Part shown: piece after piece, positions 2,596 through 38,017 of the stretch
Numbering within the stretch: position 1 is the stretch's first letter
Layout: every line of letters starts with the position of its first letter
Source of the DNA: Patescibacteria group bacterium
Lineage (GTDB): Bacteria; Patescibacteriota; JACPGU01
DNA: 64,000 nt
Reading direction: 5' to 3'
Assembly (NCBI GenBank): GCA_041675145.1
Contig: JBAYUK010000001.1
Coordinates: forward strand, 106,751 to 170,750
The notes under the pieces: model-generated
What the model was told of the DNA's origin: nothing
Databases searched by the model: none
What the model saw: only the letters and a program-made list of their open reading frames with translations
Made by a program: the position numbers and the translations under genes

Positions 2596-3606
2596 TTATT
2601 CCCAAGAAATGTTTTGAGCTATCCAGGCAAGCATCTCCTTAGTCTGTACAAAACGAGCAGATGATCCCAGTACTACTGTTATAACCTGATTCCCAGCTAT
2701 TTCAGTTAATGTAATGAAACACTCACCAGCGAGTGGAGTAGAACCAGTCTTGAGCCCCAATACACGAAAGTCCTTATCCGTGAGGAGTGCATTCGTAGAT
2801 CGTATCTCAGCTTTCTTGTTGCCTGAGTTCCAGACAATACCTGCATTCTCTTTACCAACTTCTCTCATTACTTCTGGATGTGAAATTGCAGCACGCGCAA
2901 GGATAGCGAGATCTCCTGCTGTTGAGTAGTTATCTCCTTGATCTAAACCAATCATATTAGAAAAGTGCGTATTACTCATACCTAGTTCCGTAGCCTTTTC
3001 GTTCATAAGACGAATAAATTCTAGGGGCTTTCCTGGAGAAACAGCCTCAGACAGTACCGCCGCGGCGTCATTAGAAGAAGAGACTAAGCTTGCAGTCAGC
3101 AAATCCTGTACCAGGATAGTATCTCCTGGAACTAGTCCAAGTTTATGTGCCGGAAGATCCGTGTAATTACCACGAACCGTTACAGCATCAGTTAACTTGA
3201 CATGATCTAAAGCCACTAGTACGGTCATAAGCTTGGTCAAGCTTGCAATCGGTCTTTTCGTATCGGTGTTTTTTCCCAGTAACAGGCTATGAGTCGTAAC
3301 ATCTATTGCCGTGTAGGCCGCAGGTGCAAACAACGGAGGACGAGCTGTTGTTGCTCGTGGAATCTTTACCGGGCTGTATCCAGAAAGTACTACAGTATGA
3401 TCTTGGTAAATAGTAAGTGGTACCGCTTCAAACTCAGCCCGAGAGTGAGGCAGAGCACGAAATGAAAGGTATATGACTGCCGAACTGGCAATAAAAAAAG
3501 CTGCCATATAGTGATGATGGGCAACTGGAAAGGAACCTTTTTTCGCGTTGTTTCTTTTTTTCTGTGGCATTACCTGTACTGTACCAGGAAAGGCATGAGC
3601 GGTCAA
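2596..3606 (-). CDS. D-alanyl-D-alanine carboxypeptidase (low-MW PBP, PBP5/6 family) with N-terminal membrane anchor
   Basis: SxxK 'SLTKLMT', SxN 'SSSND' and KTG 'KTGST' motifs in the canonical order. Confidence 0.8.
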   Translation of the reverse strand: MTAHAFPGTVQVMPQKKRNNAKKGSFPVAHHHYMAAFFIASSAVIYLSFRALPHSRAEFEAVPLTIYQDHTVVLSGYSPVKIPRATTARPPLFAPAAYTAIDVTTHSLLLGKNTDTKRPIASLTKLMTVLVALDHVKLTDAVTVRGNYTDLPAHKLGLVPGDTILVQDLLTASLVSSSNDAAAVLSEAVSPGKPLEFIRLMNEKATELGMSNTHFSNMIGLDQGDNYSTAGDLAILARAAISHPEVMREVGKENAGIVWNSGNKKAEIRSTNALLTDKDFRVLGLKTGSTPLAGECFITLTEIAGNQVITVVLGSSARFVQTKEMLAWIAQNISWE

Positions 3607-4338: not shown

Positions 4339-4848
4339 TTATTCCCAGATAACGCGTACAAATTTGTTTCCTGGGCTCCATTTATATGTCACCTTACTCT
4401 GGTATGCTTTTCCAAGGTGGTCACCGATGATTCGTGCGAGGTATGGGCTTGCAGTATACACAATCCAACCGGTTTTTTTCTTATCTATATGTACAATTCT
4501 GTTCTTAGGGTCCTCGTGACGGTGAGCTTCTTCAAGGTTATTGATCATAGCAGTGATTTGAGACGGTACGAGCATCGCAATCTTGTTCTTAAGTACCACT
4601 TCACCCTCATACCAACCGTTTTCAATAGAAAGACACCCAGGACAAACCTTTTCCTTATATTCCTGGCGTTCACTCTCCTTAATTTCAGGATCCCAAAACC
4701 AGTGCTTCTGAGCTTTTACCATACCACACGTTGGGCAGATTAAAACTGTAGATTCAGCCTTGTTGGCTCTCTCCTTAGATTTAAATCCCCCTTCTTGTTG
4801 TTGTCTGACCATTTTCCCTGCTATTTTTGTTGTTCTGAAAATTCCCAT
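4339..4848 (-). CDS. Hypothetical zinc-ribbon protein (CxxC...CxxC); possibly Nmd3/COG1499-like
   Basis: 'ICPTCG' and 'VCPGC' pairs. Similarity to Nmd3-like proteins is only an impression. Confidence 0.4.
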   Translation of the reverse strand: MGIFRTTKIAGKMVRQQQEGGFKSKERANKAESTVLICPTCGMVKAQKHWFWDPEIKESERQEYKEKVCPGCLSIENGWYEGEVVLKNKIAMLVPSQITAMINNLEEAHRHEDPKNRIVHIDKKKTGWIVYTASPYLARIIGDHLGKAYQSKVTYKWSPGNKFVRVIWE

Positions 4849-6038: not shown

Positions 6039-8423
6039 CTAGCGAATTTCAGCTGAAAAGTCTATGGTAAGTTTCTTGATTATACTATCTAGTGCCTCTT
6101 TGATTTCTGCATCGGTTAAGGTATGGTCTTGCGCTTGCAGTGTAATACGGAATCCAAGAGATTTCTTTCCCTTCTCTATCCCCTCTCCACGGTAGTCATC
6201 AAAAAGTTCTACACTGGTTACTATATCAGAAACAGACGAGATAGATAGCGCAATCTGGTTGCTATCCCGATCTTCCAAAACAAGGATTGCAAGGTCACGG
6301 CGGGATATTTCATAACGAGAAAACTCCTTATATACCACATTACTCTCATTATCCACGAATTCAGGCGTACTGTTTTGTAAGAACAAGGCAAGATACGAAA
6401 GATCTATTTCTGCCACCCAGACGCGTTGCTTGATGTCTAGTGCAGAAAGTATTGAAGGATGAACCTCATATGTCTGCCCTACTTCCTGTGAGTTATACAA
6501 AATCCTTGCAGATCTTCCTGGGTGACCTGAAGCAATGGTATCAGTAGCTTCATACTGAAGTATAATTCCTGCATCCCGGGTCCAAAGATCCAGACTGTGC
6601 TTGATTTCCCCCCATTCAGTATCTGTCCCGCTTGTATACGCAAGAGCTAAACGGCGCGGTTCAGTATCTACCTGGCTTGGATCCATACTTTTCATATATA
6701 CCTTTGAAACATCAAAAAGAGCCAGCACTTTTTCTTTTTTCAGGTTTAAGGCGACAGTGTGAACGAGCCCCGGAATGAGACTTGGTCGAGGAATGCTATT
6801 CCCCTCGGGTAGCGGGTTCGTAATATTAAAACTTGCCTGGTAGTCAGGGAAAAGTGAGATGAGTTCTGGCTTGAGCAGCGAGTAGGTAAAGATCTCACTA
6901 TACCCAGCTGATACAAAATGTCTACGAACTGCCTGTTCTGCAAGCATGATCTTTGGCTTGTCTTGAATAGTAGTAGTTTCTGGTAGCACTTCAGGTACGG
7001 TGTCAAAACCATAAATACGACCCACTTCCTCGGCAATGTCTTGCCAGATAGTCACATCATTACGCCATATAGGTACCTGGATGAGCCAGGTAGTACCGTC
7101 GTTAATTACTATGAAGCCAAGGGAGAGCAAAATCTGCTCCATTCTTGTAAGTGTTATGTCTTGCGCTAAAAAGTCGAGTATTTGTTGTGGGTTAACTCGT
7201 AGTGATACAGGGTTCTGGTCTTGATCACCTTTTATCTCAACTGTAGCAATCTCAGCTTCAGGACAGATCTGAGATATAAGAGAGCGTGCACGCTCCATAG
7301 CAGCAGTGGCCAACCCAATTGGTAGTCCTTTTGCAAACCGCACCGATGACTCGGTAGTAATGCCGAGAGTCCTTTGAGAGTGACGAATAATCGGTGATGT
7401 GAAGTGAGCTGCCTCAAGCAGTATCTGAGTAGTTGAGTCACTTACTCCAGTATCTTTTCCTCCAATGACTCCTGCAATAGCAATAGGATGCTTAAGGTCA
7501 GAAATAACCAAAATTCCATCAGGCAATTCGCGACTTACCCCATCAAGAGTAGTGATATTTTCTCCTTTTTTAGACAAGCTAATTGCAATAGTCTTTCTCC
7601 CCTCACCACCTACTTTACTATAGTCGAAGGCATGAAGTGGGTTACCCATCTCAAGCATAACAAGATTAGTAATATCTACTATGTTATTAATAGGGCGAAT
7701 ACCACAGGCCATAAGCCGTGCCTGCATCCATGCCGGAGATGACTGTACCTGAATATTCGTAACTATACACGCTTGATACAGTGGACAGGCCATAAAGTCA
7801 TGACGCCACTCAATATCTACATAGTCATGAGTACTCCCCTCCTCCTGTATCTCCCCTACTACTGCCTCAGTGTATTCTTTGTTATATATAGCGGCAATCT
7901 CACGAGCAAGTCCTGTATGGCTCTGCAAGTCTCCACGATTAGGAAGAATAGCTCCATCTAGAACATAGTCATGATAAAGAGTAGATAGCTTCATGCCTAC
8001 CTGTGTACCTTCAGGTAAGGTCATAATGTCATGGGTTTCACCACCGAGACCAATTTCATCTGCTCCACAAATCATTCCCTGTGATTCTATTCCACGCAGT
8101 TTAGAAACTTTAATTTCACCGTTGGGTAGTTTTGTTCCTGGAAGTGCAACTGGCACCTTAATACCAGCTCGTACATTAGGAGAACCACAAACAATCTGGT
8201 GCATTGCTCCACCAGTATCTACCCGGCACACCTTAAGTCGGTCTGCATCTGGATGCTGCTCACATGAAGTAACCTCCCCTACAATGACGGTATCCATATA
8301 TGTTCCGCCCATCTCCTCTATTCCCTCTACTTCAACAGATTTAAGAGATAGCTCATCTGCCAGCGCTTGTGACGTTGCATTGAAATCTACGAGTTGTTTT
8401 AGCCAGTTATATGAGAATTTCAT
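6039..8423 (-). CDS. pheT: Phenylalanine--tRNA ligase beta subunit
   Basis: N-terminus 'MKFSYNWLKQLVDF' is the canonical PheT start, followed by the tRNA-binding, B3/4 and B5 domain order. 794 aa. Confidence 0.95.
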   Translation of the reverse strand: MKFSYNWLKQLVDFNATSQALADELSLKSVEVEGIEEMGGTYMDTVIVGEVTSCEQHPDADRLKVCRVDTGGAMHQIVCGSPNVRAGIKVPVALPGTKLPNGEIKVSKLRGIESQGMICGADEIGLGGETHDIMTLPEGTQVGMKLSTLYHDYVLDGAILPNRGDLQSHTGLAREIAAIYNKEYTEAVVGEIQEEGSTHDYVDIEWRHDFMACPLYQACIVTNIQVQSSPAWMQARLMACGIRPINNIVDITNLVMLEMGNPLHAFDYSKVGGEGRKTIAISLSKKGENITTLDGVSRELPDGILVISDLKHPIAIAGVIGGKDTGVSDSTTQILLEAAHFTSPIIRHSQRTLGITTESSVRFAKGLPIGLATAAMERARSLISQICPEAEIATVEIKGDQDQNPVSLRVNPQQILDFLAQDITLTRMEQILLSLGFIVINDGTTWLIQVPIWRNDVTIWQDIAEEVGRIYGFDTVPEVLPETTTIQDKPKIMLAEQAVRRHFVSAGYSEIFTYSLLKPELISLFPDYQASFNITNPLPEGNSIPRPSLIPGLVHTVALNLKKEKVLALFDVSKVYMKSMDPSQVDTEPRRLALAYTSGTDTEWGEIKHSLDLWTRDAGIILQYEATDTIASGHPGRSARILYNSQEVGQTYEVHPSILSALDIKQRVWVAEIDLSYLALFLQNSTPEFVDNESNVVYKEFSRYEISRRDLAILVLEDRDSNQIALSISSVSDIVTSVELFDDYRGEGIEKGKKSLGFRITLQAQDHTLTDAEIKEALDSIIKKLTIDFSAEIR

Positions 8424-9478
8424 TAAAATTGTTTCAAGAAACGAATATCATTCTCGTACAGGTAGCGAATATTAGGTATTGCGTGTTTCATCATGGCCAG
8501 CCGCTCTATACCCGTACCAAACGCAAACCCGGTATATACATCAGGATCTATTCCTCCAAACTTTAGAACATTTGGATGTACCATACCTGCACCAAGAAGC
8601 TCGAGCCATCCGGTCTGTTTACAGACACGACACCCTTTACCGGTACAGATTACGCACGTTACATCTACTTCAAAACTTGGTTCAGTAAATGGAAAATAGC
8701 TTGATCGGAAACGGATATTCACATCATCTCCAAGTAGTTTCTGCATCGCCAGATGTACGGTAGCTTTCAGGTTTGCAAGAGTAAGCCCCTTATCCACTAC
8801 TAACCCCTCGAATTGATGAAACATCGGGAAGTGGGTCGCATCATCATCTCTACGGTATGTCTTACCAGGGAAGATCACCTTGATTGGAAGTTTTTCTTTA
8901 TGGTCTTGCATGTAGCGCACCTGGTAGGCTGAAGTTTGGGTACGCATTAAAAGCTGGTCTTTTAAAGATGCCCCGCCTACTTTTTCTACATAAAAGGTAT
9001 CGTGGTCATCACGAGTGGGGTGGTCTGCTGGAATATTTAATGCCGTGAAGTTATAAAAATCGGTCTCTATCTCACTCCCATCCGCAATATCATAGCCGAG
9101 GTCAGAAAACACTCGACACACTTTTAAAATAAAATTAGAAAGAGGGTGAAGGTGACCTTCTGTAGTAGTCATCTGTCGAAGACTAGAAAGCGCGTTAATA
9201 TCTTGTTTCTCATACTGCGCTAACTTCTTCCACTCTTCTGTCTGAAGTGCCTTGCGCTTCTCTTCCAGTTGAGCACGCATGTCATCTCGCAGTTGGTTTG
9301 CCTGGGGTCCTAACACTTTTTTCTCCTCTAACCGTAGGTCAGAGAGGGATTTCAAGATAAGGGTTAGTCTTCCTTTGCGTCCAAGGTATGACACTTCAAG
9401 CTCCTCTAATACTTTCGCATCAGAAATAACAGAGAGGTCTTGCATGAATTGTGTGCGCAAATCTGGTAGTGGATACAT
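8423..9478 (-). CDS. pheS: Phenylalanine--tRNA ligase alpha subunit
   Basis: Class II motifs including 'FPFTEPSFEVDV' and 'GWLELLGAGMVHPNVL'. Overlaps pheT by 1 nt. Confidence 0.95.
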   Translation of the reverse strand: MYPLPDLRTQFMQDLSVISDAKVLEELEVSYLGRKGRLTLILKSLSDLRLEEKKVLGPQANQLRDDMRAQLEEKRKALQTEEWKKLAQYEKQDINALSSLRQMTTTEGHLHPLSNFILKVCRVFSDLGYDIADGSEIETDFYNFTALNIPADHPTRDDHDTFYVEKVGGASLKDQLLMRTQTSAYQVRYMQDHKEKLPIKVIFPGKTYRRDDDATHFPMFHQFEGLVVDKGLTLANLKATVHLAMQKLLGDDVNIRFRSSYFPFTEPSFEVDVTCVICTGKGCRVCKQTGWLELLGAGMVHPNVLKFGGIDPDVYTGFAFGTGIERLAMMKHAIPNIRYLYENDIRFLKQF

Positions 9479-9873
9479 TATTGTTCTTCTATTTTAATAG
9501 GGGTCTTCTTAGACCAGAAGTAGGCTTCAAGTAAGAGTACAGCAGTGACAAACACAATACCATCAAATACCTTAAAGAGATGGAGAGATGTCATGCCCAG
9601 TAACCCCACGAGAATAATACCAAACATGATCCCGTGACGCAGTGAAGTTAGTATTTGGCGCTTCACCGTATCATACCCATGCTTTTTAAGTCGGAAGCGT
9701 AGTTCAAGGAGTCCAAAAGTACCCAGGATTGAGATAAAAAGACTTGAGAAGAAGAGTATCAATACTCCAACACTCGCGTTCCTTGGGTCAGTAAAGTTAA
9801 GTGTCAAAAAGAAAATCACCCATGTAAAGGAAACGAAGATCTCACTGTTCCAAAAAAAGTTTTTGATATCCAT
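9478..9873 (-). CDS. Hypothetical integral membrane protein (4 TM), first gene of the pheST operon
   Basis: 131 aa with four hydrophobic segments. The start overlaps the pheS start region. A 'TGGTACAAT' element sits 9 nt upstream. Confidence 0.55.
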   Translation of the reverse strand: MDIKNFFWNSEIFVSFTWVIFFLTLNFTDPRNASVGVLILFFSSLFISILGTFGLLELRFRLKKHGYDTVKRQILTSLRHGIMFGIILVGLLGMTSLHLFKVFDGIVFVTAVLLLEAYFWSKKTPIKIEEQ

Positions 9874-9923
9874 ATCTCCTCTATTGTACCAGATTGAAAG
9901 CCACTGTCGAGAATTTTAGGTAT

Positions 9924-9969
9924 AAAAAAAGTCGGCACCCCCCAAATGGGGTGCCGACCGGTTTTTTTT
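9924..9969. terminator. Bidirectional intrinsic terminator (GTCGGCACCCC-loop-GGGGTGCCGAC flanked by A7 and T8)
   Basis: Perfect 11-bp stem, with a U-tract on both strands. Confidence 0.85.
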
Positions 9970-10091
9970 GCTGGGAAACCCTGCACTCTTCTTTCTTGAT
10001 GGAGAGATCAGAGAGCAGTGAAACTCACCCCAGCGGTTCCAGTACTCAAATGAGTCTTGAAACCGCTGGGGAGCGGGAAGATATTATACCA
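9931..10091 (-). ncRNA. Candidate small RNA or leader: extended -10 promoter TGGTATAAT (10083-10091), ~45-nt imperfect hairpin (10027-10071), intrinsic terminator (9931-9968)
   Basis: Promoter, a long inverted repeat CCCCAGCGGTT...AACCGCTGGGG and a terminator all occur on the minus strand within about 160 nt. No ORF is present. Confidence 0.3.
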
Positions 10092-10123
10092 TATTATGGT
10101 CATAGGACAGAGAGACTGCCACC

Positions 10124-10139
10124 CGCGCAGATCTGCGCG
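10124..10139. promoter_or_regulatory. Perfect 16-bp palindrome CGCGCAGATCTGCGCG, adjacent to an ACCC-TTTC-GGGT mini-hairpin
   Basis: Seen directly in the sequence. It sits about 35 nt upstream of the TGGTATAAT element on the minus strand. Confidence 0.4.
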
Positions 10140-10153
10140 TACACCCTTTCGGG

Positions 10154-10420
10154 TTATTTTGAATTCGTTTTCGCCTTAGCGATGACGCGTTGGCGGGTGG
10201 CGATTCTCTCTGGGACTGGGCACTTTATACACGCCCTTATTTCTTCAGCGCGTACCACACACTGCACACCTTTCTCGTTTGGTTCATAGTAAGCCCAGAA
10301 GGTGATGTAATCGGACTTCATTTCACCCTTCGGCATGGCGACCTTGGGGGCCTGTAGTCTCTTATTGAGATTACAGGGAACCTGCTCATCCTCACTCTTG
10401 TGTCCTGCTTGAGTCAGCAC
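10154..10420 (-). CDS. Doubtful small Cys-containing ORF (88 aa, GTG start, no SD)
   Basis: Open frame only. It lies at the edge of a GC-rich island where long ORFs occur on both strands. Confidence 0.2.
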   Translation of the reverse strand: MLTQAGHKSEDEQVPCNLNKRLQAPKVAMPKGEMKSDYITFWAYYEPNEKGVQCVVRAEEIRACIKCPVPERIATRQRVIAKAKTNSK

Positions 10421-11651
10421 AGGAAAGTTCGAAAACTAAGTGATTATTGTTTCTTGTAAGACATCTATGCGTGTGCCTCAAAAGAATGGCTATCTGCTAC
10501 CCTTTTCACTCTTCGCTACTCGGAGGTAACAGATCTCTCTACACCTTCCAGGCCTCCTCCCTTTTAGAGCAAGGAAGTAATGCGGCTCCAGTGTAGTTTT
10601 TTGATGCCACACCATCTCATGCCGGGAACGCATCCAGGGCACTTTGACTGGTCATCGGCCTGTTTAGTGGTACTCCTTTGGAATAGCACATGGGGTCAGG
10701 CTACCGTTGTCCGGGTGGATCAGGCGATGGCGGCGGGTTTGCCGCGGCCGGAGCCGGCGCCCAGGGCGTTCAGGTTTTCAGTCTTCGAATCGGTCTTTTT
10801 GGCGGCCGTGTGCGCACCATGGCAAATAGTACAAGTTCCGATGAAAGTAGAGCCTCTGCAGGCCATGATGTCCTCCTTGGGACAGTGACGAGTCCTTGGC
10901 TGGACCTCTATCACTTGTGCAAACCTTTCGTGAGTGCACAAACCTTTTGTTCATATCCTCGTTTCCTACACTAGGCAAGCTAGCACGGTTGGGACACAGA
11001 ACATTGTGATTGCGGGCGTATCTGGGTTACTCTTGCGAGACCGTCGTGTCTTTAGGTACCCTTTGGTCATTTATTTATGAATGGCTGTGCCTCCATAGGA
11101 AAATTCTCGGGGGAATCAACCCCTAAAAAACCTTATTTACGCTACTTGCTCGGATTCCTCATGGTCGTGCAGCTCTTTTTCCATATCTGGAAAAAGATCG
11201 AGACGAGTCATGCAGGATAGAGCGTTGGCAAGACCTATATAAGGTCTGTTTTATTCCCCTACCTCACAGGCGCTAGTTCATTGAGTGCCGATAACTCATA
11301 GGTCGCGGCTGAACTGCTATACGTTGTAAGGCGAAAGCGGGGGTCATTCGTTTAGTGGCGATGGGGCTCCACATCGGGACCCCGTGCCGTTGGAATTACC
11401 AGCATTCGGGTTGCTCCTTCTTTTTTTTCAGCGGCGCTGACAGTTGATGGACCGGATGTTGTGCTAGTAGCTGTAACTCAAACGCATGATTGCGCCTCCT
11501 TTCAAAGAATCTTAATATTCCTCTTTATAGAGGAGATCAAATAGGCGGGTTGTTCATGTGCGACAGGTTTTTCAACCGGATGTGTACATAATAACACAAA
11601 AGAAAGAGTGCGTCAAGTATTTTTAGTAAATACACGCTTTCTTCTGGGATA

Positions 11652-11993
11652 TTACTCTAGGCTACCCAGTATTTCTTCTACTACCTTTACTGCTTTCACT
11701 GATTCATCTATTTTAAACACGATTTTCGGGACAAAGCGCATCTCCAGCCTTCGGTTTAGCTTCTTTTGAATATCTGCAATATTCTCACGAAGTAGGGTAA
11801 GCACTGTCCCCTCTTTTCCTTCTGGAAGTACAGATATCCAGACCGTTGCATGCTCTAGTGTATCAGAGGTTGCGATTCTTTGTACAGTCACCATTACGCC
11901 AGGACCAAAAACACCCTCAGAGAGGAGTATCTGGGCAAGCTCAACACGAATAACTTCATTAACCTTTTCTATACGCATAGGGGTGTTAGACAC
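11652..11993 (-). CDS. rbfA: Ribosome-binding factor A
   Basis: 113 aa with an RbfA-like KH fold signature ('VTVQRIATSDTLEHATVWISVL'). Sits in the usual position downstream of the r-protein genes. Confidence 0.8.
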   Translation of the reverse strand: MSNTPMRIEKVNEVIRVELAQILLSEGVFGPGVMVTVQRIATSDTLEHATVWISVLPEGKEGTVLTLLRENIADIQKKLNRRLEMRFVPKIVFKIDESVKAVKVVEEILGSLE

Positions 11994-12026: not shown

Positions 12027-12473
12027 TTAACGCTTTGAGAACTGTGGTGCCTTACGAGCACGGCGAAGACCTGGCTTCTTACGCTCTTTTTCACGAGGAT
12101 CACGAGTAAGGAATCCGTTTTTACGTAGTGGAGACTTGAGTTCTGGGTCCATAGCAACAAGTGCACGAGCAACTCCTAGTAAAATTGCATCTGCTTGAGC
12201 TACAATCCCACCACCGTTTACTCTTGCACTGACGTCAAACTTTGCCTTGAAGCCTGTTAGAGCTAAAGGAGCAGAAAGCTTACGCATAAGACCTTCTAAA
12301 CCACCGAAGAACTCCTGCTCAGCACGCTCGTTAATAACAACAGCGCCCTTACCTGGGTACAAACGAACTTTTGCCACCGCAGTCTTGCGACGACCAAGAC
12401 CGTAGAAATACGTTGCAGTAGGGTTTGCTACCGTTACCTTTTCGATTGTTTTTTTAGCAGTAGTTGTTGCCAT
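12027..12473 (-). CDS. rpsI: 30S ribosomal protein S9
   Basis: C-terminal '[14 protein letters not shown]' is diagnostic of uS9. Confidence 0.95.
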
Positions 12474-12477
12474 GTGG

Positions 12478-12900
12478 TTATGCCTTTAGTTCGATATCGT
12501 TTTTAGTCTTCTGGTATGCGTCATCGTTTAAAATCAAAAGGTTCTTCATGAAACGTTCGCGAAGTTTATTCTTGGGAAGCATTCCGTGTACTGCGCGGCG
12601 CATAAGGTCAGATGGGTTCTTTTCCATAATCTCTTTTGCAGTTGTGCGACGAAGTCCTCCTGGATAACGCGTGTGATGAAAGTATTCCTTTGCTTCAAGT
12701 TTGTTACCAGAAAGTTGGATGTCTTTCATGTTCAAAACAATCACTGTGTTTCCTGACATTTCATGTCGTTCAAAGTTTGGATCATTTTTTCCACGCAACG
12801 CCTCTGTTGCAACAGTTGCAACACGGCCAAGGATCTTGCCACCAGCATCAATAACAAAGGTTTTTGGAGTATGTGAGATTTTCATATTATACAAATTCAA
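12478..12900 (-). CDS. rplM: 50S ribosomal protein L13
   Basis: '[26 protein letters not shown]' is a uL13 N-terminus. Confidence 0.95.
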
Positions 12901-13237
12901 TTATTGCTTTGCGAGTAGCGTCTCCTGGACGAACACCAATCTTGGTAATACGCAAGTATCCGCCATTACGCTTTTCATATTTCTTACCAATATCTTCGAT
13001 CAACTTCTTTGCAAGCAGTTCGTCACCTAAGGCTGAGATAATCTGGCGACGGTTATGTAAGTCACCTTTCTTACCCTTTGTAACAAGCTTTTCAACAATA
13101 GGACGAATTTCTTTCGCTTTTGCTTCGGTAGTTGTGATTTTGTCATGCAAAATCAACGACTTCGCAAGACTCTTCAAAAGTCCTTTGCGTGCCCCGTCTT
13201 TTCGTCCCAATGTGCGTCCTGAATGCAAGTGTTTCAT
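12887..13237 (-). CDS. rplQ: 50S ribosomal protein L17
   Basis: 'MKHLHSGRTLGRKDGARKGLLKSLAKSLILHDKITTTEAKAKE' is canonical bL17. Confidence 0.95.
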   Translation of the reverse strand: MKHLHSGRTLGRKDGARKGLLKSLAKSLILHDKITTTEAKAKEIRPIVEKLVTKGKKGDLHNRRQIISALGDELLAKKLIEDIGKKYEKRNGGYLRITKIGVRPGDATRKAIIEFV

Positions 13238-13247
13238 GATCTGGTAA

Positions 13248-14168
13248 TTATTTAAGTCCTAGTTCAACTATTTTCTCAGCAATTTCTTCCTGAGCTTTTG
13301 CTCCCATACCACGCAGTGATCCAATCTCATCAGTTGAGAGAGATGAAAGCTGCTTCATGCTCTTGATATTGTTCTTCAGAAGCGCGTTAATAGTGCGGGT
13401 TGAGAAGTCTACTTCTTCAACACTCATATCTTCGTCGCGACCTGAAACACGGCTACCTTTTTTCTCGGCCATCTTAGATGGTTCGCGGTTACCTGCAAGC
13501 AAGCTAAACTGTTCAACTAAAATGTTTGCTGCATCGGTAATAGCCTGGCGAGGTGAAGTAGTGCCATCTGTTTCAACATCAAGCATAATTTTATCAAAGT
13601 TAGTTGCTTGTCCAACACGAGTGTTCTCAACTGAGTAAGAAACACGAGTAACTGGTGTGTAGAGTGCATCGATAGCAATTTCCCCGATTGGACGCTTTTC
13701 ACGGCGCTCTTCAGCTGAAACATACCCACGACCACGCTCAACTTCAATCTCCATATTCACTACGCCTTTTGGAGTAGTAATAGTGAAGAGTGGCTGTTCA
13801 GGGTTTAAAATTACTACATCAGCGTTTCCTTTGATGTCAGCAGCCGTTACTACTCCCTCACCCTTTGACTGAAGTGTTAGAGTATGACGGTCACCCTGCT
13901 TAATCTGTACCCGAACAAGCTTCAAATTAAATACAATATTTAAAATATCTTCCTTTACATGAGGTAGCGTAGAGAATTCATGAGAAACACCATCGATCTT
14001 TACAGAAGAGATAGCCGCACCAGGGAGAGATGAAAGAAGCACGCGGCGCAATGCATTCCCAATGGTCATACCGTAACCTGGATAGAGAGGCTCGATCAAA
14101 AAGCTACCAGACTTGGTCTCTTCAGTGATTGTTTTGATACTCGGTAATATAATTTCTTCGGTTTCCAT
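13248..14168 (-). CDS. rpoA: DNA-directed RNA polymerase subunit alpha
   Basis: 306 aa between rpsD and rplQ, with an N-terminal domain plus alphaCTD ('INALLKNNIKSMKQL'). Confidence 0.95.
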   Translation of the reverse strand: METEEIILPSIKTITEETKSGSFLIEPLYPGYGMTIGNALRRVLLSSLPGAAISSVKIDGVSHEFSTLPHVKEDILNIVFNLKLVRVQIKQGDRHTLTLQSKGEGVVTAADIKGNADVVILNPEQPLFTITTPKGVVNMEIEVERGRGYVSAEERREKRPIGEIAIDALYTPVTRVSYSVENTRVGQATNFDKIMLDVETDGTTSPRQAITDAANILVEQFSLLAGNREPSKMAEKKGSRVSGRDEDMSVEEVDFSTRTINALLKNNIKSMKQLSSLSTDEIGSLRGMGAKAQEEIAEKIVELGLK

Positions 14169-17619: not shown

Positions 17620-17708
17620 TTGCCCTCATTATACCAGGAATACCATCTGGTATCTAGTATTTTGATAACAAACATAAATACAGATATCAAGTATAGTTAT
17701 TGCTTTTA

Positions 17709-17737
17709 TTGACTTATCTGAGCCATTTTGTTATGAT
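17709..17737 (+). promoter_or_regulatory. Sigma70-type promoter TTGACT-17 nt-TATGAT driving the plus-strand small-gene operon
   Basis: The hexamers and spacing are seen directly. Divergent from the adk -10 element. Confidence 0.65.
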
Positions 17738-17804
17738 ATATTCATAGTTCATCCACCCTGATTTATCAGGCGCTCATTAACAAAGGATAGAATAGGACAG
17801 TTTC

Positions 17805-18137
17805 ATGCCCACTTGGATATTAGTCGCAGTAGTTGCAGTAATTACAATCTTTGGCACCATCGTTTCAGCAGTCGTGGCTGGCGTGACGGCTCTTATGATC
17901 CACCACAAAGCTTCGAATGTTATTTCAATTGCTGTCTTCATATATGGACTTCTTGTCACCGTGTACATAAGCTACGACGCGTACAAGAAACTTCAATATG
18001 AAGATCAGCGAGAAGAATACATCATCACCGTAAACGGCAAGATGTATTCTTGCACTAAGAATAAAAAAGCTGACACACTCTGGTGTGAGAGAGCCAAGAA
18101 GAAGGAAAAGCCAAAAGAGACTAAGGAGAATAAATAA
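17805..18137 (+). CDS. Small membrane protein: 2 TM plus a Lys/Glu-rich C-terminal tail (holin-like topology)
   Basis: 110 aa; first gene after the promoter. The stop overlaps the next start (ATGA). Confidence 0.55.
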   Translation: MPTWILVAVVAVITIFGTIVSAVVAGVTALMIHHKASNVISIAVFIYGLLVTVYISYDAYKKLQYEDQREEYIITVNGKMYSCTKNKKADTLWCERAKKKEKPKETKENK

Positions 18138-18334
18138 TGAGCACCATACTGACTTTCCTTCTGTTTTCTGCTTCTCTTGTCCTTGGCATGGCCATATTCA
18201 TCACTGCCATCATCAGTCTTTTTGAATATCCCTTCACAACAGAAGGGGAGCTTTCAATTCCTCAGGTGCTTCTCAGCATAGAAATAGCACTTTTCAGCCT
18301 TTCCCTGTTTGGAGTATTTGCTCTAAATAGATAG
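18137..18334 (+). CDS. Small membrane protein (2 TM, 65 aa)
   Basis: Translationally coupled to the upstream gene and hydrophobic throughout. Confidence 0.5.
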   Translation: MSTILTFLLFSASLVLGMAIFITAIISLFEYPFTTEGELSIPQVLLSIEIALFSLSLFGVFALNR

Positions 18335-18388
18335 ATTGAGTCCCAACACCAACCATGCCGGCGATACCGGAGAAATGCGAGAAGCACA

Positions 18389-18697
18389 ATGAGAAGACTT
18401 AACCTCAACTACCAACAAAGCGAGGATATGCGATACATGCTCGCAATCTTGGATGAAACAAGCGATGATTCAGTTGAAAATGTGAATCAACTCACAAAAG
18501 AACTTATAGAAGCAATTCCATTCAAGATTGAAATCGTTAAGAAGCCTTATGTTCGCTTTGAAAGAGACACAGGCAAAATAATGATTCGTCTTGAATTCAA
18601 CATCGGTAGCTACAGCCACAAAGATTTGGTTTCACAACTTGAAAAGGCTGGTTTCACAAAGTTTATACCTTTGTCTTCATGCCTTAAAACCAAGTAG
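18389..18697 (+). CDS. Hypothetical acidic soluble protein (102 aa)
   Basis: Fits the operon spacing. No known motif. Confidence 0.5.
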   Translation: MRRLNLNYQQSEDMRYMLAILDETSDDSVENVNQLTKELIEAIPFKIEIVKKPYVRFERDTGKIMIRLEFNIGSYSHKDLVSQLEKAGFTKFIPLSSCLKTK

Positions 18698-18720
18698 AGG
18701 AAAGCCAGAAAGGAAGCAAT

Positions 18721-19014
18721 ATGCTGGATTTAAAAAACATCCGACTCAACCATGGAAAGGCCGTTGACCTATCCATTCCTCTTGGGCTCGCCAATTGGTG
18801 GATAACCGAGGGTCCTAACTTCATTCGTGAAGAACTGGATGAACTTATAAGTGAAGTCACAAGCGAGTACAAGGAAACAATCCGCACGCTAGAAATGGTG
18901 CTAGATAAAATCCTGGAACTTGCTGTGGTTGACCTCAAGCTGGCAATGCACTTCTTCAAGCAACTTTTTGGTGACAGCACCAATATGGGCTGGATTCCTG
19001 GAGAAGAGTCATGA
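18721..19014 (+). CDS. Hypothetical soluble protein (97 aa)
   Basis: ORF in operon context. No known motif. Confidence 0.5.
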   Translation: MLDLKNIRLNHGKAVDLSIPLGLANWWITEGPNFIREELDELISEVTSEYKETIRTLEMVLDKILELAVVDLKLAMHFFKQLFGDSTNMGWIPGEES

Positions 19015-19376
19015 TCTTGCGAACAATCGCTCAGGCCGTCATGTTTATAGCGGTGAGTACCGTCGTCAGTCTTGGCTTAATCCAAGAGTCATTCAAGGCT
19101 CTGACAGAAATGGAGCAGAAATCAAGAAACATTGCACATAACTCTGTTCTGTCCGCTCAAGCCTGGCGAAAGACAGCTCTGGAATGGAAAAGAAATTCTC
19201 AAGAGTGGAAGAAATCCTCCAGTGACTGGAAAAATCTCTACCTTGTGGAGAAAAAGATTGCCAATGAATATGCTGATGGAATGGACAAGTACAACTCAGC
19301 ACTTCACAATTGCAAAGCGCTCATTCACAAGAAACGACCAGACTTGGTCTGTATCAACTACAAACAAGGGCGGTGA
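19011..19376 (+). CDS. Membrane-anchored coiled-coil protein (N-terminal TM plus W/K-rich heptad-like repeats 'WRKTALEWKRNSQEWKKSSSDWKN')
   Basis: 4-nt overlap with the upstream gene. Topology resembles TM-anchored coiled-coil proteins such as i-spanins. Confidence 0.5.
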   Translation: MILRTIAQAVMFIAVSTVVSLGLIQESFKALTEMEQKSRNIAHNSVLSAQAWRKTALEWKRNSQEWKKSSSDWKNLYLVEKKIANEYADGMDKYNSALHNCKALIHKKRPDLVCINYKQGR

Positions 19377-19378
19377 CT

Positions 19379-19789
19379 ATGCCTCAAACACACATAATCA
19401 TCCCCTTTCGGGATCGGTTACTTTCATTAGTTCGTGAACACCCAGGATGCACATACCTTTTGTTCTACGAGATCGGAGAAGGAATGATTTATGTATGCAC
19501 CACTCTCGAAGTTCTTGAGCTTCGCGACTGGAGCTACTACGATCTTTCCCTGTATCAACCAAAACACCCAAACAGTATTGACCCAGTGTGGCAAAAAAAG
19601 TACCAGATCGGATGCTTTCGAAGCTGCTACTACCCAGCTGGGTTTTCACCACTTGAAGGGCGCATTGAACACTTCAGCTCCACCTGCACACGAGAGCTAA
19701 ACCCTGCGCCACACACCCACCTTCCTAACCGACTCTTCTTCTCTTATGGACACTTGATACCCAATAGTCTCGGGGTTATCCATGAGTAA
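19379..19789 (+). CDS. Hypothetical Cys/His-rich protein (136 aa); ORF-track 19310..19789 trimmed to the ATG after the upstream stop
   Basis: Last gene of the operon. The terminator starts 2 nt after its stop. Confidence 0.45.
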   Translation: MPQTHIIIPFRDRLLSLVREHPGCTYLLFYEIGEGMIYVCTTLEVLELRDWSYYDLSLYQPKHPNSIDPVWQKKYQIGCFRSCYYPAGFSPLEGRIEHFSSTCTRELNPAPHTHLPNRLFFSYGHLIPNSLGVIHE

Positions 19790-19790
19790 T

Positions 19791-19828
19791 AACCGCCAAG
19801 TGGCAAAAGGCCGCTTCGGCGGTTTTTT
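19791..19828 (+). terminator. Intrinsic terminator (AACCGCC...GGCCGC-TTCG-GCGG-TTTTTT)
   Basis: Nested GC stems with a UUCG-type loop followed by T6. Confidence 0.75.
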
Positions 19829-19946
19829 GTTTGCTAAAATACCTCTTTGTCTAAAAAATATTTTGGTATATAGTGGCAAAAGAGACATATTGCTCGTTAA
19901 TAATAAATCGTGCAGTTATTCCAAAACACAACGAAAGGGGTCAATC

Positions 19947-20558
19947 ATGACCACGCCACCCGCCAAACTTGTCGTTCTTGCTTCCGGCTACGGGAGTAAC
20001 TTTCAGGCCGTTATTGACGCCTGTAAAGCAGAGGTTATCAACGCTCATGTATGCGCACTGGTCACCGACCAGAAAGAAGCGTACTGCCTGACTCGTGCAC
20101 GAACCGAGGATATCAAAAGCATGATCTATCCCAAGTTCAAGGCCGTTTCAAGACAAGCATACGACCAAGGACTTGCTGATCTCGTCACTGTTTTCAAACC
20201 CGACTGGGTTTTGTTGCTTGGCTGGATGCGAATCCTGTCTGGAGCGTTTCTTGATCAATTCCCAGGTAAGGTGATTAACATGCACCCAGCACTTCCGGGG
20301 AAGTTTCCGGGAGTAAACGCTATTGAACGCGCCTTTGCTGCGTTTCAAGAAGGTGAGGTCAACGAGACCGGAGTTATGCTCCACTTCGTCCCAGACGAAG
20401 GAGTAGATGACGGTCCTGTGATTACTCAAGCTACCGTTAGAATTTTTATGTCGGACACACTTGAAACACTGAAGAAGAGAATTCATGACACCGAGCATGC
20501 CCTGCTCGTTTCAACACTACAATCCCTTTGCAAAGTGGGACAACCAGCCCTTATCTAG
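19947..20558 (+). CDS. purN: Formyltransferase, PurN (phosphoribosylglycinamide formyltransferase)-like
   Basis: 'LVVLASGYGSNFQAV' N-terminus and 'HPALPGKFPG' from the folate-binding region; SD 'GAAAGGGG' 6 nt upstream. The ORF-track start at 19782 is probably too far upstream. Confidence 0.75.
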   Translation: MTTPPAKLVVLASGYGSNFQAVIDACKAEVINAHVCALVTDQKEAYCLTRARTEDIKSMIYPKFKAVSRQAYDQGLADLVTVFKPDWVLLLGWMRILSGAFLDQFPGKVINMHPALPGKFPGVNAIERAFAAFQEGEVNETGVMLHFVPDEGVDDGPVITQATVRIFMSDTLETLKKRIHDTEHALLVSTLQSLCKVGQPALI

Positions 20559-20578
20559 GGACATACGAGGAGACCGCC

Positions 20579-20731
20579 ATGAAGACACTTGTGATTGGAG
20601 TTTCAGCCTTCCTTCTTGTTTGGGGAGCAATTGAGCTATGGGAACTAAGCCTCGCTCAAAGCAACCCCAACAGCCGGAAACGACCCTTTCCCCCACTCGG
20701 GGATCCCACACCTGAGTTCGCCGGGGACTAA
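20579..20731 (+). CDS. Small signal-peptide/TM peptide (50 aa) with Pro-rich C-terminus
   Basis: Strong SD 'GAGGAG' 7 nt upstream of the ATG. Hydrophobic N-terminus. Confidence 0.45.
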   Translation: MKTLVIGVSAFLLVWGAIELWELSLAQSNPNSRKRPFPPLGDPTPEFAGD

Positions 20732-20754
20732 TACTCCCCAGGAGCTCAACGGCC

Positions 20755-20786
20755 AGAAAAAAACCACTGCAAAGTGGTTTTTTCTT
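20755..20786. terminator. Bidirectional terminator (AACCACT-GCAA-AGTGGTT flanked by A7 and T5) between convergent secY and the plus-strand island
   Basis: Perfect 7-bp stem with U-tracts on both strands. Confidence 0.8.
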
Positions 20787-20814
20787 GTCTATTACATTTC
20801 CTGTATCTTATCTT

Positions 20815-37913: not shown

Positions 37914-38017
37914 TGCAGACTCCTTTCCTTGTGTGTATTTTCCGACTGTAAAAGAGGATCGAGGAGTAATGTCACTCCCTGATATTTCCTGTATTATAGC
38001 AGTTTTGTACTATACAT

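What the first reader, a model, noticed from the sequence alone, without database searches (positions are those of the whole stretch)
9924..10160. Promoter-hairpin-terminator unit (candidate ~145-nt sRNA or attenuator) upstream of the membrane-protein-pheS-pheT operon, with a 16-bp perfect palindrome
On the minus strand an extended -10 TGGTATAAT (10083-10091) is followed by a ~45-nt imperfect hairpin (CCCCAGCGGTT...AACCGCTGGGG, 10027-10071). Next come a ~58-nt spacer and a textbook intrinsic terminator (9931-9968). Then a second TGGTACAAT element and SD 'AGAGGAG' lie immediately before the membrane-protein ATG at 9873. This could be an independent small RNA. It could also be a transcription-attenuation leader for the pheST operon; Phe-tRNA synthetase operons are classically attenuator/T-box controlled, but no T-box consensus is present here. 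About 35 nt upstream of the -10 lies a perfect palindrome CGCGCAGATCTGCGCG (10124-10139) next to an ACCC-TTTC-GGGT mini-hairpin, a plausible operator.
Basis: seen in the sequence. Interest (0 to 1): 0.6.

Follow-up and report, generated by a model that had tools for sequence, protein, structure and literature searches.

The report
Terminator end of long noncoding RNA
The hairpin-plus-terminator unit is real, but it is most likely the structured tail of an unannotated, roughly 1.7-kb noncoding RNA gene that related uncultured bacteria keep at the same spot, and not a control switch for the phenylalanine-tRNA synthetase genes.

Summary
The 153-nt and 237-nt stretches fold far better than shuffles (z = -7.8). 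The 16-bp palindrome is what chance gives, one per 64 kb. The unit is not isolated. It closes a 1,778-bp gene-free stretch (9874-11651, minus strand) between rbfA and the membrane-protein/pheS/pheT operon. This stretch is richer in G+C than its surroundings, shows no codon periodicity and has stops in all frames. It starts with a near-consensus promoter (TTGACG-17-TGtTATTAT, 11616-11588) and has one sense-strand intrinsic terminator, the one in the finding. All eight related Patescibacteria loci that reach this position (PheS 59-63% identical) hold a comparable G+C-rich noncoding stretch. The seven that include its start have the same promoter type, three of them in tandem. All eight end with a terminator, and in most a separate promoter for the membrane-protein gene follows. 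Primary sequence is not conserved with the window. The closest pair of relatives aligns over about 1 kb, with compensatory changes in three hairpins. No Rfam family matches. The pheST-attenuator reading is not supported: no T-box, no leader peptide, and a promoter lies downstream of the terminator. A nested ~150-nt RNA from the internal TGGTATAAT remains possible.

The parts
11588..11616 (-). Promoter P1 of the long RNA: TTGACG, 17 nt, TATTAT, with TG upstream (extended -10). It begins 35 nt after the rbfA stop codon.
   Evidence: The same type, TTGACA-N14-TGnTAnAAT, stands at the start of the gap in L163 and L166-L171.
9924..11581 (-). Inferred long noncoding transcription unit of about 1,658 nt, from about 7 nt after the -10 of P1 to the end of the terminator T-run.
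   Evidence: G+C is 0.49 against 0.44 for the window and 0.36-0.45 in the flanking genes. Power at period three is 2.1 against 24-61 in genes, and all three stop codons occur in all sense frames. No peptide is conserved across relatives. There is one sense-strand terminator only. The transcript itself is inferred, not observed.
11499..11511 (-). GATTCTTTGAAAG, a boxA-like element (10 of 13 to TGTTCTTTGAAAA). It overlaps the ribosome-binding-like AAGGAGG at 11501-11495, which precedes a 7-codon ORF at 11487-11464.
   Evidence: The reading is ambiguous in the window because the element overlaps a ribosome-binding-like site. The consensus used is from memory.
10720..10878 (-). AAGGAGG (10878-10872), 5 nt, then ATG: a 48-codon Cys-rich orphan ORF (10866-10720).
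   Evidence: No homologue was found. Pfam gives only a sub-threshold CXXCH match.
10154..10336 (-). Orphan 60-codon ORF that ends just before the finding. Probably not a gene.
   Evidence: The only hits are itself and eukaryotic tandem-repeat artefacts. The gene caller did not call it on the source contig.
10143..10154 (-). Mini-hairpin ACCC-GAAA-GGGU with a GNRA-type loop. First hairpin of the 3' domain.
10124..10139 (-). 16-bp perfect palindrome CGCGCAGATCTGCGCG. In RNA it forms a 6-bp hairpin with loop GAUC.
   Evidence: One is found in the window and 1.0 is expected.
10083..10091 (-). Internal extended -10 TGGTATAAT with a poor -35 (CTGTCC, 3 of 6). Possible start of a nested ~150-nt RNA near 10076.
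   Evidence: No relative has an equivalent element near its 3' end.
10028..10071 (-). Long hairpin of 14 + 4 base pairs (-32.8 kcal/mol) containing one U-G pair, which would be an A-C mismatch on the other strand.
9969..10027 (-). Spacer with a weak hairpin (CUGC.UCUC / GAGA.GCAG) that presents a C/U-rich loop (UGAUCUCUCCAUC), followed by an A-run.
9924..9968 (-). Intrinsic terminator: A8 run, a 12-bp stem (9 G-C, -26.1 kcal/mol), loop AUUUGG, then U7. Its sequence also qualifies as a terminator on the plus strand.
9883..9910 (-). Separate promoter of the membrane-protein/pheS/pheT operon: TCGACA, 16 nt, TGgTACAAT. The -10 ends 9 nt before the ATG at 9873, so the mRNA would be nearly leaderless.
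6039..9873 (-). The operon downstream of the unit: a conserved 131-aa membrane protein (9478-9873), pheS (8423-9478) and pheT (6039-8423).

Best explanation
The stretch 9924-10160 is the hairpin-rich 3' terminal domain, plus the intrinsic terminator, of a long RNA gene of about 1.66 kb. That RNA is essentially noncoding and runs on the minus strand.

How it most likely works:
- Transcription starts at a strong sigma-70-type promoter right after rbfA (11616-11588).
- It runs through G+C-rich hairpins separated by A-rich linkers.
- It stops at the only sense-strand terminator of the region (9959-9924).
- The terminator ends this RNA, and also any read-through from the ribosomal-protein/rbfA operon.
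- The membrane-protein/pheS/pheT operon is therefore expressed from its own promoter (9910-9883), probably as a nearly leaderless mRNA.
- The stable terminal hairpins (10071-10028 and the terminator) probably protect the 3' end of the RNA.
- The internal TGGTATAAT may add a nested ~150-nt RNA that shares the terminator.

What is shown: the sequence elements, the absence of coding signal, the fold stability, and the conserved position and promoter/terminator layout in relatives.

What is inferred: that one transcript spans the whole unit, and what that RNA does.
For: - Elements and fold of the unit.
- It is the only long gene-free stretch in 64 kb whose G+C exceeds the average.
- No periodicity of three, and stops in every frame.
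- No conserved peptides. The ORFs inside it are orphans.
- There is one promoter at the 5' end and one sense-strand terminator at the 3' end.
- The source is a Patescibacteria metagenome contig.
- Relatives L163, L164 and L166-L171 all hold a noncoding stretch before the membrane-protein/pheS genes; in L168, L169 and L171 a further gene separates it from rbfA. It measures 1.2-1.8 kb, except about 0.5 kb in L166, and is at least 1.2 kb in L164, whose contig is cut. G+C is raised by 6-13 points; in L166 only the first ~600 nt is raised.
- Each gap whose start is on the contig begins with TTGACA-N14-TGnTAnAAT. The promoters are in tandem in L166, L169 and L170.
- Each gap ends with a terminator; in most relatives a recognisable promoter for the membrane-protein gene follows.
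- nhmmer links L167-L171. L169 and L170 match at E = 3e-37 over about 1 kb.
- Three well-aligned hairpins of L169/L170 each carry one compensatory change and no broken pair.
Against: - No transcript data exist.
- The window's RNA shows no sequence or covariance-model similarity to any relative. Its homology therefore rests on position, signals and composition.
- A four-way alignment gives no consensus structure.
- Outside the last ~300 nt, the window's folding z-scores are weak, from 0.9 to -3.3.
- AAGGAGG followed by ATG is enriched, so short ORFs may be translated and the RNA may not be strictly noncoding.
- A long untranslated RNA could be cut short by Rho before it reaches the finding. In that case the internal promoter would be the real source of the 3' unit.
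Confidence: 0.55

Rival explanations
1. The unit is an independent small RNA of about 150 nt. It is made from the internal extended -10 promoter (10091-10083), starts near 10076 with a protective 5' hairpin, has a C/U-rich single-stranded middle that could pair with ribosome-binding sites, and ends at the terminator. The upstream 1.5 kb is a separate matter.
For: - The extended -10 is perfect. My own base-frequency estimate gives about 0.025 for such a copy in the gap by chance.
- Other extended -10 elements with poor -35 hexamers sit just upstream of genes in the window, at 38001, 57389, 24668 and 27161.
- The layout of 5' hairpin, spacer and terminator folds with z = -7.8.
- This is by far the most structured part of the gap.
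Against: - The -35 matches 3 of 6.
- No relative has a promoter-like element near the 3' end of its gap, and none has a match to the unit.
- No terminator lies upstream, so transcripts from P1 would cover the same sequence anyway.
- Window-wide, the number of TGnTATAAT copies is near chance.
Confidence: 0.25
2. The unit is a transcription-attenuation leader. The terminator at 9959-9924 is conditionally read through to control the membrane-protein/pheS/pheT operon in response to phenylalanine or tRNA-Phe charging.
For: - Its position is upstream of pheST.
- Pairing of GGGGUG (10030-10025) with CACCCC in the 5' half of the terminator stem is possible.
- The ribosome-binding-like AGAGGAG at 9882-9876 would be present only in read-through transcripts, because the -10 of the operon promoter ends 9 nt before the ATG.
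Against: - There is no T-box hit even at E <= 10. The Phe_leader hit scores 17.3 bits against 55 and covers the terminator only.
- There is no leader ORF with Phe codons or a ribosome-binding site.
- The alternative pairing is about 22 kcal/mol worse than the terminator fold.
- A good promoter lies downstream of the terminator, in the window and in relatives.
- In L166, L168 and L169 the -10 lies 7-8 nt from the ATG with no ribosome-binding site. The operon therefore does not depend on read-through.
Confidence: 0.05
3. Only the terminator is functional. It ends the ribosomal-protein/rbfA operon. The rest of the gap, including the hairpin, the palindrome and the internal -10, is fast-evolving spacer or decayed DNA without a function of its own.
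For: - There is no sequence conservation between the window and any relative.
- No consensus structure emerges across four relatives.
- The palindrome is at chance level.
- Length varies from 0.5 to 1.7 kb.
Against: - A near-consensus promoter, often in tandem, is kept at the 5' end in all eight lineages whose gap start is on the contig, the window included.
- G+C is raised in AT-rich, gene-dense genomes.
- L169 and L170 are homologous over 1 kb without an ORF, and compensatory changes preserve their hairpins.
- AAGGAGG occurs 12 times on the sense strand against 1.3 expected.
- The 3' unit folds at z = -7.8.
Confidence: 0.15

Closest known systems
Small RNAs nested in the 3' end of a longer transcription unit that have their own internal promoter and share the terminator (MicL in cutC and DapZ in dapB of enterobacteria; from my own knowledge)
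   Same: An internal -10 element about 165 nt upstream of a shared intrinsic terminator. A stable hairpin, then a single-stranded stretch, then the terminator.
   Different: Here the host unit is noncoding. There is no chaperone context, target or expression data, and the internal promoter is not seen in relatives.
Large bacterial noncoding RNAs found as long G+C-rich intergenic regions in AT-rich genomes (OLE, GOLLD, ROOL, HEARO, raiA; the approach is described in PMC6429828 and PMC8723152)
   Same: A long G+C-rich gene-free region in an AT-rich, gene-dense genome, with its own promoter and terminator and a conserved genomic position.
   Different: No Rfam family matches. Those families have strongly conserved sequence and structure. 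This one is alignable only between the closest relatives and varies from 0.5 to 1.7 kb in length.
Expression signals of long untranslated RNAs: ribosomal RNA operons and CRISPR arrays with strong or tandem promoters and a boxA element that recruits Nus factors against Rho termination (PMC7665894, PMC5725501)
   Same: Near-consensus promoters, in tandem about 85-98 nt apart in three relatives. A boxA-like motif lies within 160 nt of the promoter in 6 of 9 units, against 8.7% of random segments. The transcript is long and untranslated.
   Different: There is no similarity to rRNA and there are no repeats. The boxA consensus of this lineage is unknown, and the one I used is from memory. In the window the motif overlaps a ribosome-binding-like site.
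pheST control elements: the pheM leader-peptide attenuator of E. coli and T-box leaders of Firmicutes (Rfam RF01859 and RF00230)
   Same: A terminator upstream of pheS.
   Different: There is no leader peptide, T-box sequence or specifier stem, and a promoter lies between the terminator and the operon.

Membership tests
T-box leader (RF00230) | Covariance-model match that includes Stem I with the specifier loop and the conserved 14-nt T-box sequence in an antiterminator overlapping the terminator | tested here: not met
   T-box does not appear among the 18 matches with E <= 10 in 9700-10500, nor at the gathering threshold over the whole window.
Phe leader-peptide attenuator (RF01859, pheM type) | Short leader ORF rich in Phe codons that overlaps region 1 of alternative hairpins | tested here: not met
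   The Rfam hit scores 17.3 bits against 55 and covers the terminator only. No ATG-initiated ORF or ribosome-binding site lies between 10076 and 9931.
Phe leader-peptide attenuator (RF01859, pheM type) | An antiterminator that competes with the terminator | tested here: inconclusive
   A 6-7 bp pairing of GGGGUG with CACCCC is possible, but the best fold without the terminator is -29.0 against -51.0 kcal/mol with it. Kinetics cannot be tested here.
Intrinsic (factor-independent) terminator | G+C-rich stem-loop followed directly by a U-run | tested here: met
   12 pairs (9 G-C), a 6-nt loop and U7; -26.1 kcal/mol.
Sigma-70 extended -10 promoter (the internal one at 10091-10083) | TGnTATAAT sequence | tested here: met
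   TGGTATAAT is present, with a -35 matching 3 of 6.
Sigma-70 extended -10 promoter (the internal one at 10091-10083) | Transcription initiation in vivo | not testable with these tools
   Needs dRNA-seq or 5' RACE.
Known large ncRNA families (OLE, GOLLD, ROOL, HEARO, raiA and all other Rfam 15 families) | Covariance-model match at the gathering score | tested here: not met
   There are no hits in the window. Nothing with E <= 1 in the gap beyond chance-level sRNA or miRNA models. Nothing in the relatives' gaps.
boxA/Nus-dependent antitermination leader | boxA sequence shortly downstream of the promoter | tested here: inconclusive
   At least 10 of 13 matches to TGTTCTTTGAAAA in 6 of 9 units, against 8.7% of random 160-nt segments. 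The lineage's own boxA is unknown, and the window's copy overlaps AAGGAGG.
One homologous RNA family across the relatives and the window | Detectable sequence or structure homology | tested here: inconclusive
   Met among L167-L171. Not met for the window, L163 and L164, which share only position, promoter type, terminator and composition.
Protein-coding gene (for the gap as a whole) | An open frame, periodicity of three, and conserved peptides | tested here: not met

The most novel reading that the evidence does not exclude
The locus may be an undescribed class of large bacterial RNA, 0.5-1.7 kb long and highly expressed, in a clade of Patescibacteria (candidate phyla radiation). It is kept between the ribosomal-protein/rbfA genes and the pheST operon. 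It is driven by rRNA-like strong or tandem promoters, possibly with a boxA element. It is built of G+C-rich hairpins, A-rich linkers and exposed ribosome-binding-like AAGGAGG sites. It evolves too fast for sequence searches. It might act on the translation apparatus, for example by titrating 30S subunits or an RNA-binding protein, or it might deliver micro-peptides. The window's 3' unit would be a lineage-specific terminal domain, or a nested small RNA.
Probability: 0.3. Interest if true: 0.75.

Novelty: new variant of a known kind. Interest (0 to 1): 0.5.

Why it matters
Taken alone, the unit is an ordinary terminator with a stable hairpin. The pheST-attenuator idea can be dropped.

The locus it closes is more interesting. 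Long noncoding RNAs are rare in bacteria, and none is described for the candidate phyla radiation, whose tiny, gene-dense genomes leave little room for 1-2 kb of noncoding DNA. Here such a stretch is kept at the same position, next to translation genes, across lineages as far apart as 59-63% PheS identity, and it has strong promoters. That points to a function that current annotation misses. Gene callers instead place spurious antisense ORFs there.

The locus also shows a limit of homology-based RNA discovery. Only position and expression signals are conserved across these lineages.

Tried and rejected
- **PheS scans.** Scans of genome contigs and metagenome contigs returned only relatives at most 50% identical, so L001-L160 were unusable. 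Useful relatives came from the protein search plus contig look-ups. One look-up had no DNA and one had no record.
- **Similarity of the window's gap to relatives.** blastn with words of 7, nhmmer with --max and iterated nhmmer profiles found nothing beyond promoters.
- **Covariance model of the 153-nt unit.** It found only itself and its own palindromic mirror hits.
- **Shared words and degenerate motifs.** Only A-runs and AAGGAGG turned up.
- **Six-frame peptide comparison.** Nothing was conserved.
- **Recoding of a single stop codon.** Rejected, because all three stop codons occur in all sense frames.
- **The 60-aa ORF as a gene.** Rejected. The high-scoring hits are eukaryotic proteins made of up to 53 Vps16_N repeat fragments and are artefacts.
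- **Other ORFs.** The 79-aa antisense gene that was called, and the 48-aa ORF, are both orphans.
- **A long-range 5'/3' processing stem.** No consistent signal: z from +0.2 to -3.3.
- **Consensus structures.** The four-way consensus structure was essentially empty. The two-sequence RNAalifold structure over 949 columns shows 37 double changes, but it was derived from the same two sequences. I rely only on the three hairpins in well-aligned blocks.
- **Phage and plasmid DNA searches.** No match.
- **Literature.** No paper describing such an RNA in Patescibacteria was found.
Full report
**Observation**

Reading the minus strand of 9700-10500 confirms every element of the finding.

- The extended -10 TGGTATAAT lies at 10091-10083.
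- An imperfect hairpin has 21-nt arms at 10071-10051 and 10048-10028, 86% complementary.
- A 59-nt spacer follows.
- The intrinsic terminator has a 12-bp stem (9 G-C) at 9959-9930 and a T-run to 9924. It is preceded by an A-run, so its sequence also qualifies as a terminator on the plus strand.
- TGGTACAAT lies at 9891-9883, AGAGGAG at 9882-9876 and the ATG at 9873.
- The perfect 16-bp palindrome lies at 10139-10124, and the ACCC-GAAA-GGGT hairpin at 10154-10143.

As RNA, 10076-9924 folds at -74.9 kcal/mol (z = -7.8) and 10160-9924 at -102.3 kcal/mol (z = -7.8). No shuffle out of 200 folds as well. The plus strand folds almost as well (z = -7.4), so energy does not assign the strand.

The palindrome is not remarkable: there is one 16-bp palindrome in the window and 1.0 is expected. 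TGnTATAAT occurs 4 times on the minus strand and 2 times on the plus strand. My own estimate from base frequencies is about 1.9 per strand for the window and about 0.025 for the 1.8-kb gap.

**Surroundings**

The unit is not a small island upstream of pheS. On the minus strand the gene order is:

| Feature | Coordinates |
|---|---|
| rpoA | 13248-14168 |
| rplQ | 12887-13237 |
| rplM | 12478-12900 |
| rpsI | 12027-12473 |
| rbfA | 11652-11993 |
| stretch without a credible gene (1,778 bp) | 9874-11651 |
| conserved 131-aa membrane protein | 9478-9873 |
| pheS | 8423-9478 |
| pheT | 6039-8423 |

.

The gene-free stretch has several distinctive properties.

- In a simple ORF cover of the window it is the only long stretch without a credible gene: only chance plus-strand ORFs of 102 and 131 codons fall inside it. 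Its G+C exceeds the average, whereas the other gaps are AT-rich.
- G+C reaches 0.50-0.60 there, against 0.36-0.45 in the flanking genes.
- Power at a period of three is 2.1, against 24-61 in the genes. All sense frames carry all three stop codons.
- The ORFs inside are orphans. The 60-codon ORF at 10154-10336 matches only itself and eukaryotic tandem-repeat artefacts.
- The gene called on the opposite strand of the source contig (10050-10289) matches only itself.
- The 48-codon ORF has no homologue.
- Rfam gives nothing at the gathering threshold over the window and nothing meaningful at E <= 1 in the gap. ARAGORN finds no tRNA or tmRNA.
- The gap has no match among phage or plasmid records.

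**Expression signals**

A near-consensus promoter, TTGACG-17-TATTAT with TG, lies at 11616-11588, 35 nt after the rbfA stop codon. The only sense-strand intrinsic terminator in the whole gap is the one in the finding.

The simplest reading is a single transcription unit of about 1,658 nt, from about 11581 to 9924. The stretch 10160-9924 is its most strongly folded part: sliding-window z-scores are -4.7 to -5.9 there, against +0.9 to -3.3 elsewhere.

Downstream of the terminator stands a separate promoter, TCGACA-16-TGgTACAAT (9910-9883). Its -10 ends 9 nt before the ATG.

**Relatives**

The source is a 377-kb metagenome contig of a Patescibacteria bacterium. The nearest PheS proteins are 68%, 63%, 62% and about 60% identical.

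Scans of the genome and metagenome collections gave only relatives at most 50% identical and were of no use. Contig look-ups for the closer PheS proteins gave nine loci.

The contig of L162 ends about 590 nt upstream of pheS, with a tRNA gene at its very end, so it does not reach the region. All eight other relatives show the same layout: a noncoding stretch downstream of rbfA, directly or after one more gene, and then the membrane protein and pheS.

| Locus | Length of the noncoding stretch |
|---|---|
| L163 | 1,534 bp |
| L164 | at least 1,188 bp (contig cut) |
| L166 | about 530-nt RNA, then an inserted 257-aa gene |
| L167 | 1,208 bp |
| L168 | 1,216 bp |
| L169 | 1,812 bp |
| L170 | 1,468 bp |
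| L171 | 1,666 bp |

- G+C of the gap exceeds that of the locus by 6-13 points. In L166 only the first ~600 nt is raised.
- Every gap whose start is present begins with TTGACA-N14-TGnTAnAAT. The promoters are in tandem, about 85-98 nt apart, in L166, L169 and L170. L171 has a second full promoter 675 nt further in.
- Every gap ends with an intrinsic terminator; in most relatives a recognisable promoter for the membrane-protein gene follows.
- In L166, L168 and L169 that promoter's -10 is 7-8 nt from the ATG, which implies a leaderless mRNA.

**Homology and structure**

The window's gap has no detectable similarity to any relative. This holds for blastn with words of 7, for nhmmer and for iterated nhmmer profiles. 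A covariance model of the 153-nt unit finds only itself.

Among the relatives, nhmmer links L167-L171.

| Pair | E-value |
|---|---|
| L169 / L170 (over about 1 kb) | 3e-37 |
| L168 / L171 | 9e-11 |
| L168 / L170 | 2e-4 |
| L167 / L170 | 4e-3 |

.

In the well-aligned blocks of L169/L170, three hairpins each carry one compensatory double change and no broken pair. A whole-length RNAalifold structure on the same two sequences shows 37 double changes. It was derived from those sequences, so I do not lean on it. A four-way alignment yields no consensus structure.

The relatives' gaps are therefore homologous noncoding sequence with some sign of selection on hairpins. They evolve so fast that the window's membership rests on position, signals and composition.

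**Shared features other than position**

- AAGGAGG occurs 12 times on the sense strand of the nine gaps. Shuffles give 1.3 on average and at most 6 in 200 trials. CCTCC is depleted, at 4 against 8.4.
- By my count, half of these sites have an ATG 3-9 nt downstream, where I estimate about 10% by chance. The resulting ORFs of 7-48 codons are not conserved.
- The only degenerate motifs shared by most gaps are A-runs next to G+C-rich stems. Many terminator-like hairpins on the antisense strand appear in the scans for the same reason.
- A boxA-like motif lies within 160 nt of the promoter in 6 of 9 units at 10 or more of 13 matches, against 8.7% of random segments from the same loci. The consensus is from my memory of Gram-positive rRNA leaders. 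The lineage's own boxA is unknown, and the window's copy (11511-11499) overlaps an AAGGAGG-ATG site.
- Long untranslated RNAs such as rRNA and CRISPR arrays use boxA against Rho termination (PMC7665894, PMC5725501). This makes the idea reasonable but unproven here.

**What the unit does**

The best-supported reading (0.55) is that 10160-9924 is the terminal hairpin-rich domain and terminator of the long RNA. The terminator also stops read-through from the upstream ribosomal-protein/rbfA genes, which have no terminator of their own in the window. It insulates the pheST operon, which has its own promoter.

A nested short RNA from the internal TGGTATAAT is compatible with this and is my main rival as the principal product (0.25). 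Similar extended -10 elements with poor -35 hexamers stand in front of several genes in the window. However, no relative has one near the 3' end of its gap.

Attenuation of pheST is unlikely (0.05), for these reasons:

- There is no T-box and no Phe leader.
- There is no leader ORF.
- The terminator wins by about 22 kcal/mol over the best alternative fold.
- A promoter lies downstream of the terminator in the window and in relatives.

That the gap is functionless spacer with only a terminator keeps 0.15. Arguing for it are the lack of conservation of the window's sequence and the empty four-way consensus. Arguing against it are the conserved strong promoters, the raised G+C and the L169/L170 hairpins.

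**Novelty**

The terminator and hairpin are ordinary. The locus they close matches no Rfam family, and I found no paper describing it.

It resembles the large bacterial noncoding RNAs discovered as long G+C-rich intergenic regions (PMC6429828, PMC8723152). It differs from them in its lack of sequence conservation and its variable length. In its expression signals it resembles rRNA and CRISPR leaders.

I rate it a new variant of a known kind. There is a 0.3 chance that it is a real new class of large RNA tied to the translation apparatus.

Noticed in passing
window 9874-11651 (minus strand); L163 3319-4852; L167 3357-4564; L168 3385-4600; L169 1711-3522; L170 1893-3360; L171 1939-3604; L166 2892-3530; L164 1-1188: A 0.5-1.8 kb G+C-rich, gene-free stretch with a strong promoter and a terminator, kept between the rbfA region and the membrane-protein/pheS genes in every relative whose contig reaches that far. 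It became the main result.
   Followed up: yes
sense strand of all nine gaps; in the window 11501-11495 and 10878-10872: The perfect ribosome-binding sequence AAGGAGG is enriched: 12 copies against 1.3 expected. About half the copies are followed by an ATG at 3-9 nt, yet the short ORFs are not conserved. CCTCC is depleted.
   Followed up: partly
window 11511-11499; L169 ~2050-2062; L170 ~2052-2064; L171 two sites: A boxA-like motif ((T/C)GTTC(G/T)TT(G/A)AAAA) lies shortly downstream of the promoters. Promoters are in tandem in L166, L169 and L170, as in rRNA operons.
   Followed up: partly
window 9883-9873; L166 4444-4459; L168 ~4588-4603; L169 ~3509-3525: The -10 hexamer of the membrane-protein promoter ends only 7-9 nt before the ATG, which implies a leaderless mRNA. 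In the window, the ribosome-binding-like AGAGGAG would then be present only in transcripts that read through the terminator.
   Followed up: partly
window 11537-11527 and 9884-9874: There is an 11-nt perfect complementarity between the 5' part of the long RNA (AUCUCCUCUAU) and the translation start region of the membrane-protein gene (AUAGAGGAGAU). By my estimate about 0.4 such pairs are expected by chance in this region.
   Followed up: no
window 10866-10720 (minus strand): A 48-codon Cys-rich orphan ORF (MACRGSTFIGTCTICHGAH...) follows a perfect AAGGAGG-5 nt-ATG. It has a sub-threshold match to a CXXCH motif family and no homologue.
   Followed up: partly
L163, L169, L170, L171 gaps (antisense strand): Terminator-like hairpins are over-represented on the antisense strand of the gaps, for example 5 of 5 in L170 and 7 of 9 in L171. 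On the sense RNA these read as an A-run followed by a G+C hairpin.
   Followed up: no
L161 5585-5824 and 4900-5184 (= window 10050-10289 and 10690-10974, plus strand): The gene caller of the source assembly placed two orphan genes on the strand opposite to the RNA. They are probably artefacts of the G+C-rich noncoding sequence.
   Followed up: partly
window 17620-20800: A short block of plus-strand ORFs interrupts an otherwise almost entirely minus-strand gene array. Divergent extended -10 promoters lie at 17636 (minus) and 17729 (plus).
   Followed up: no
L164 9607-9848: A gene with 23S_rRNA_IVP / bAvd domains, the accessory protein of diversity-generating retroelements, lies a few kb downstream of pheT in one relative.
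   Followed up: no
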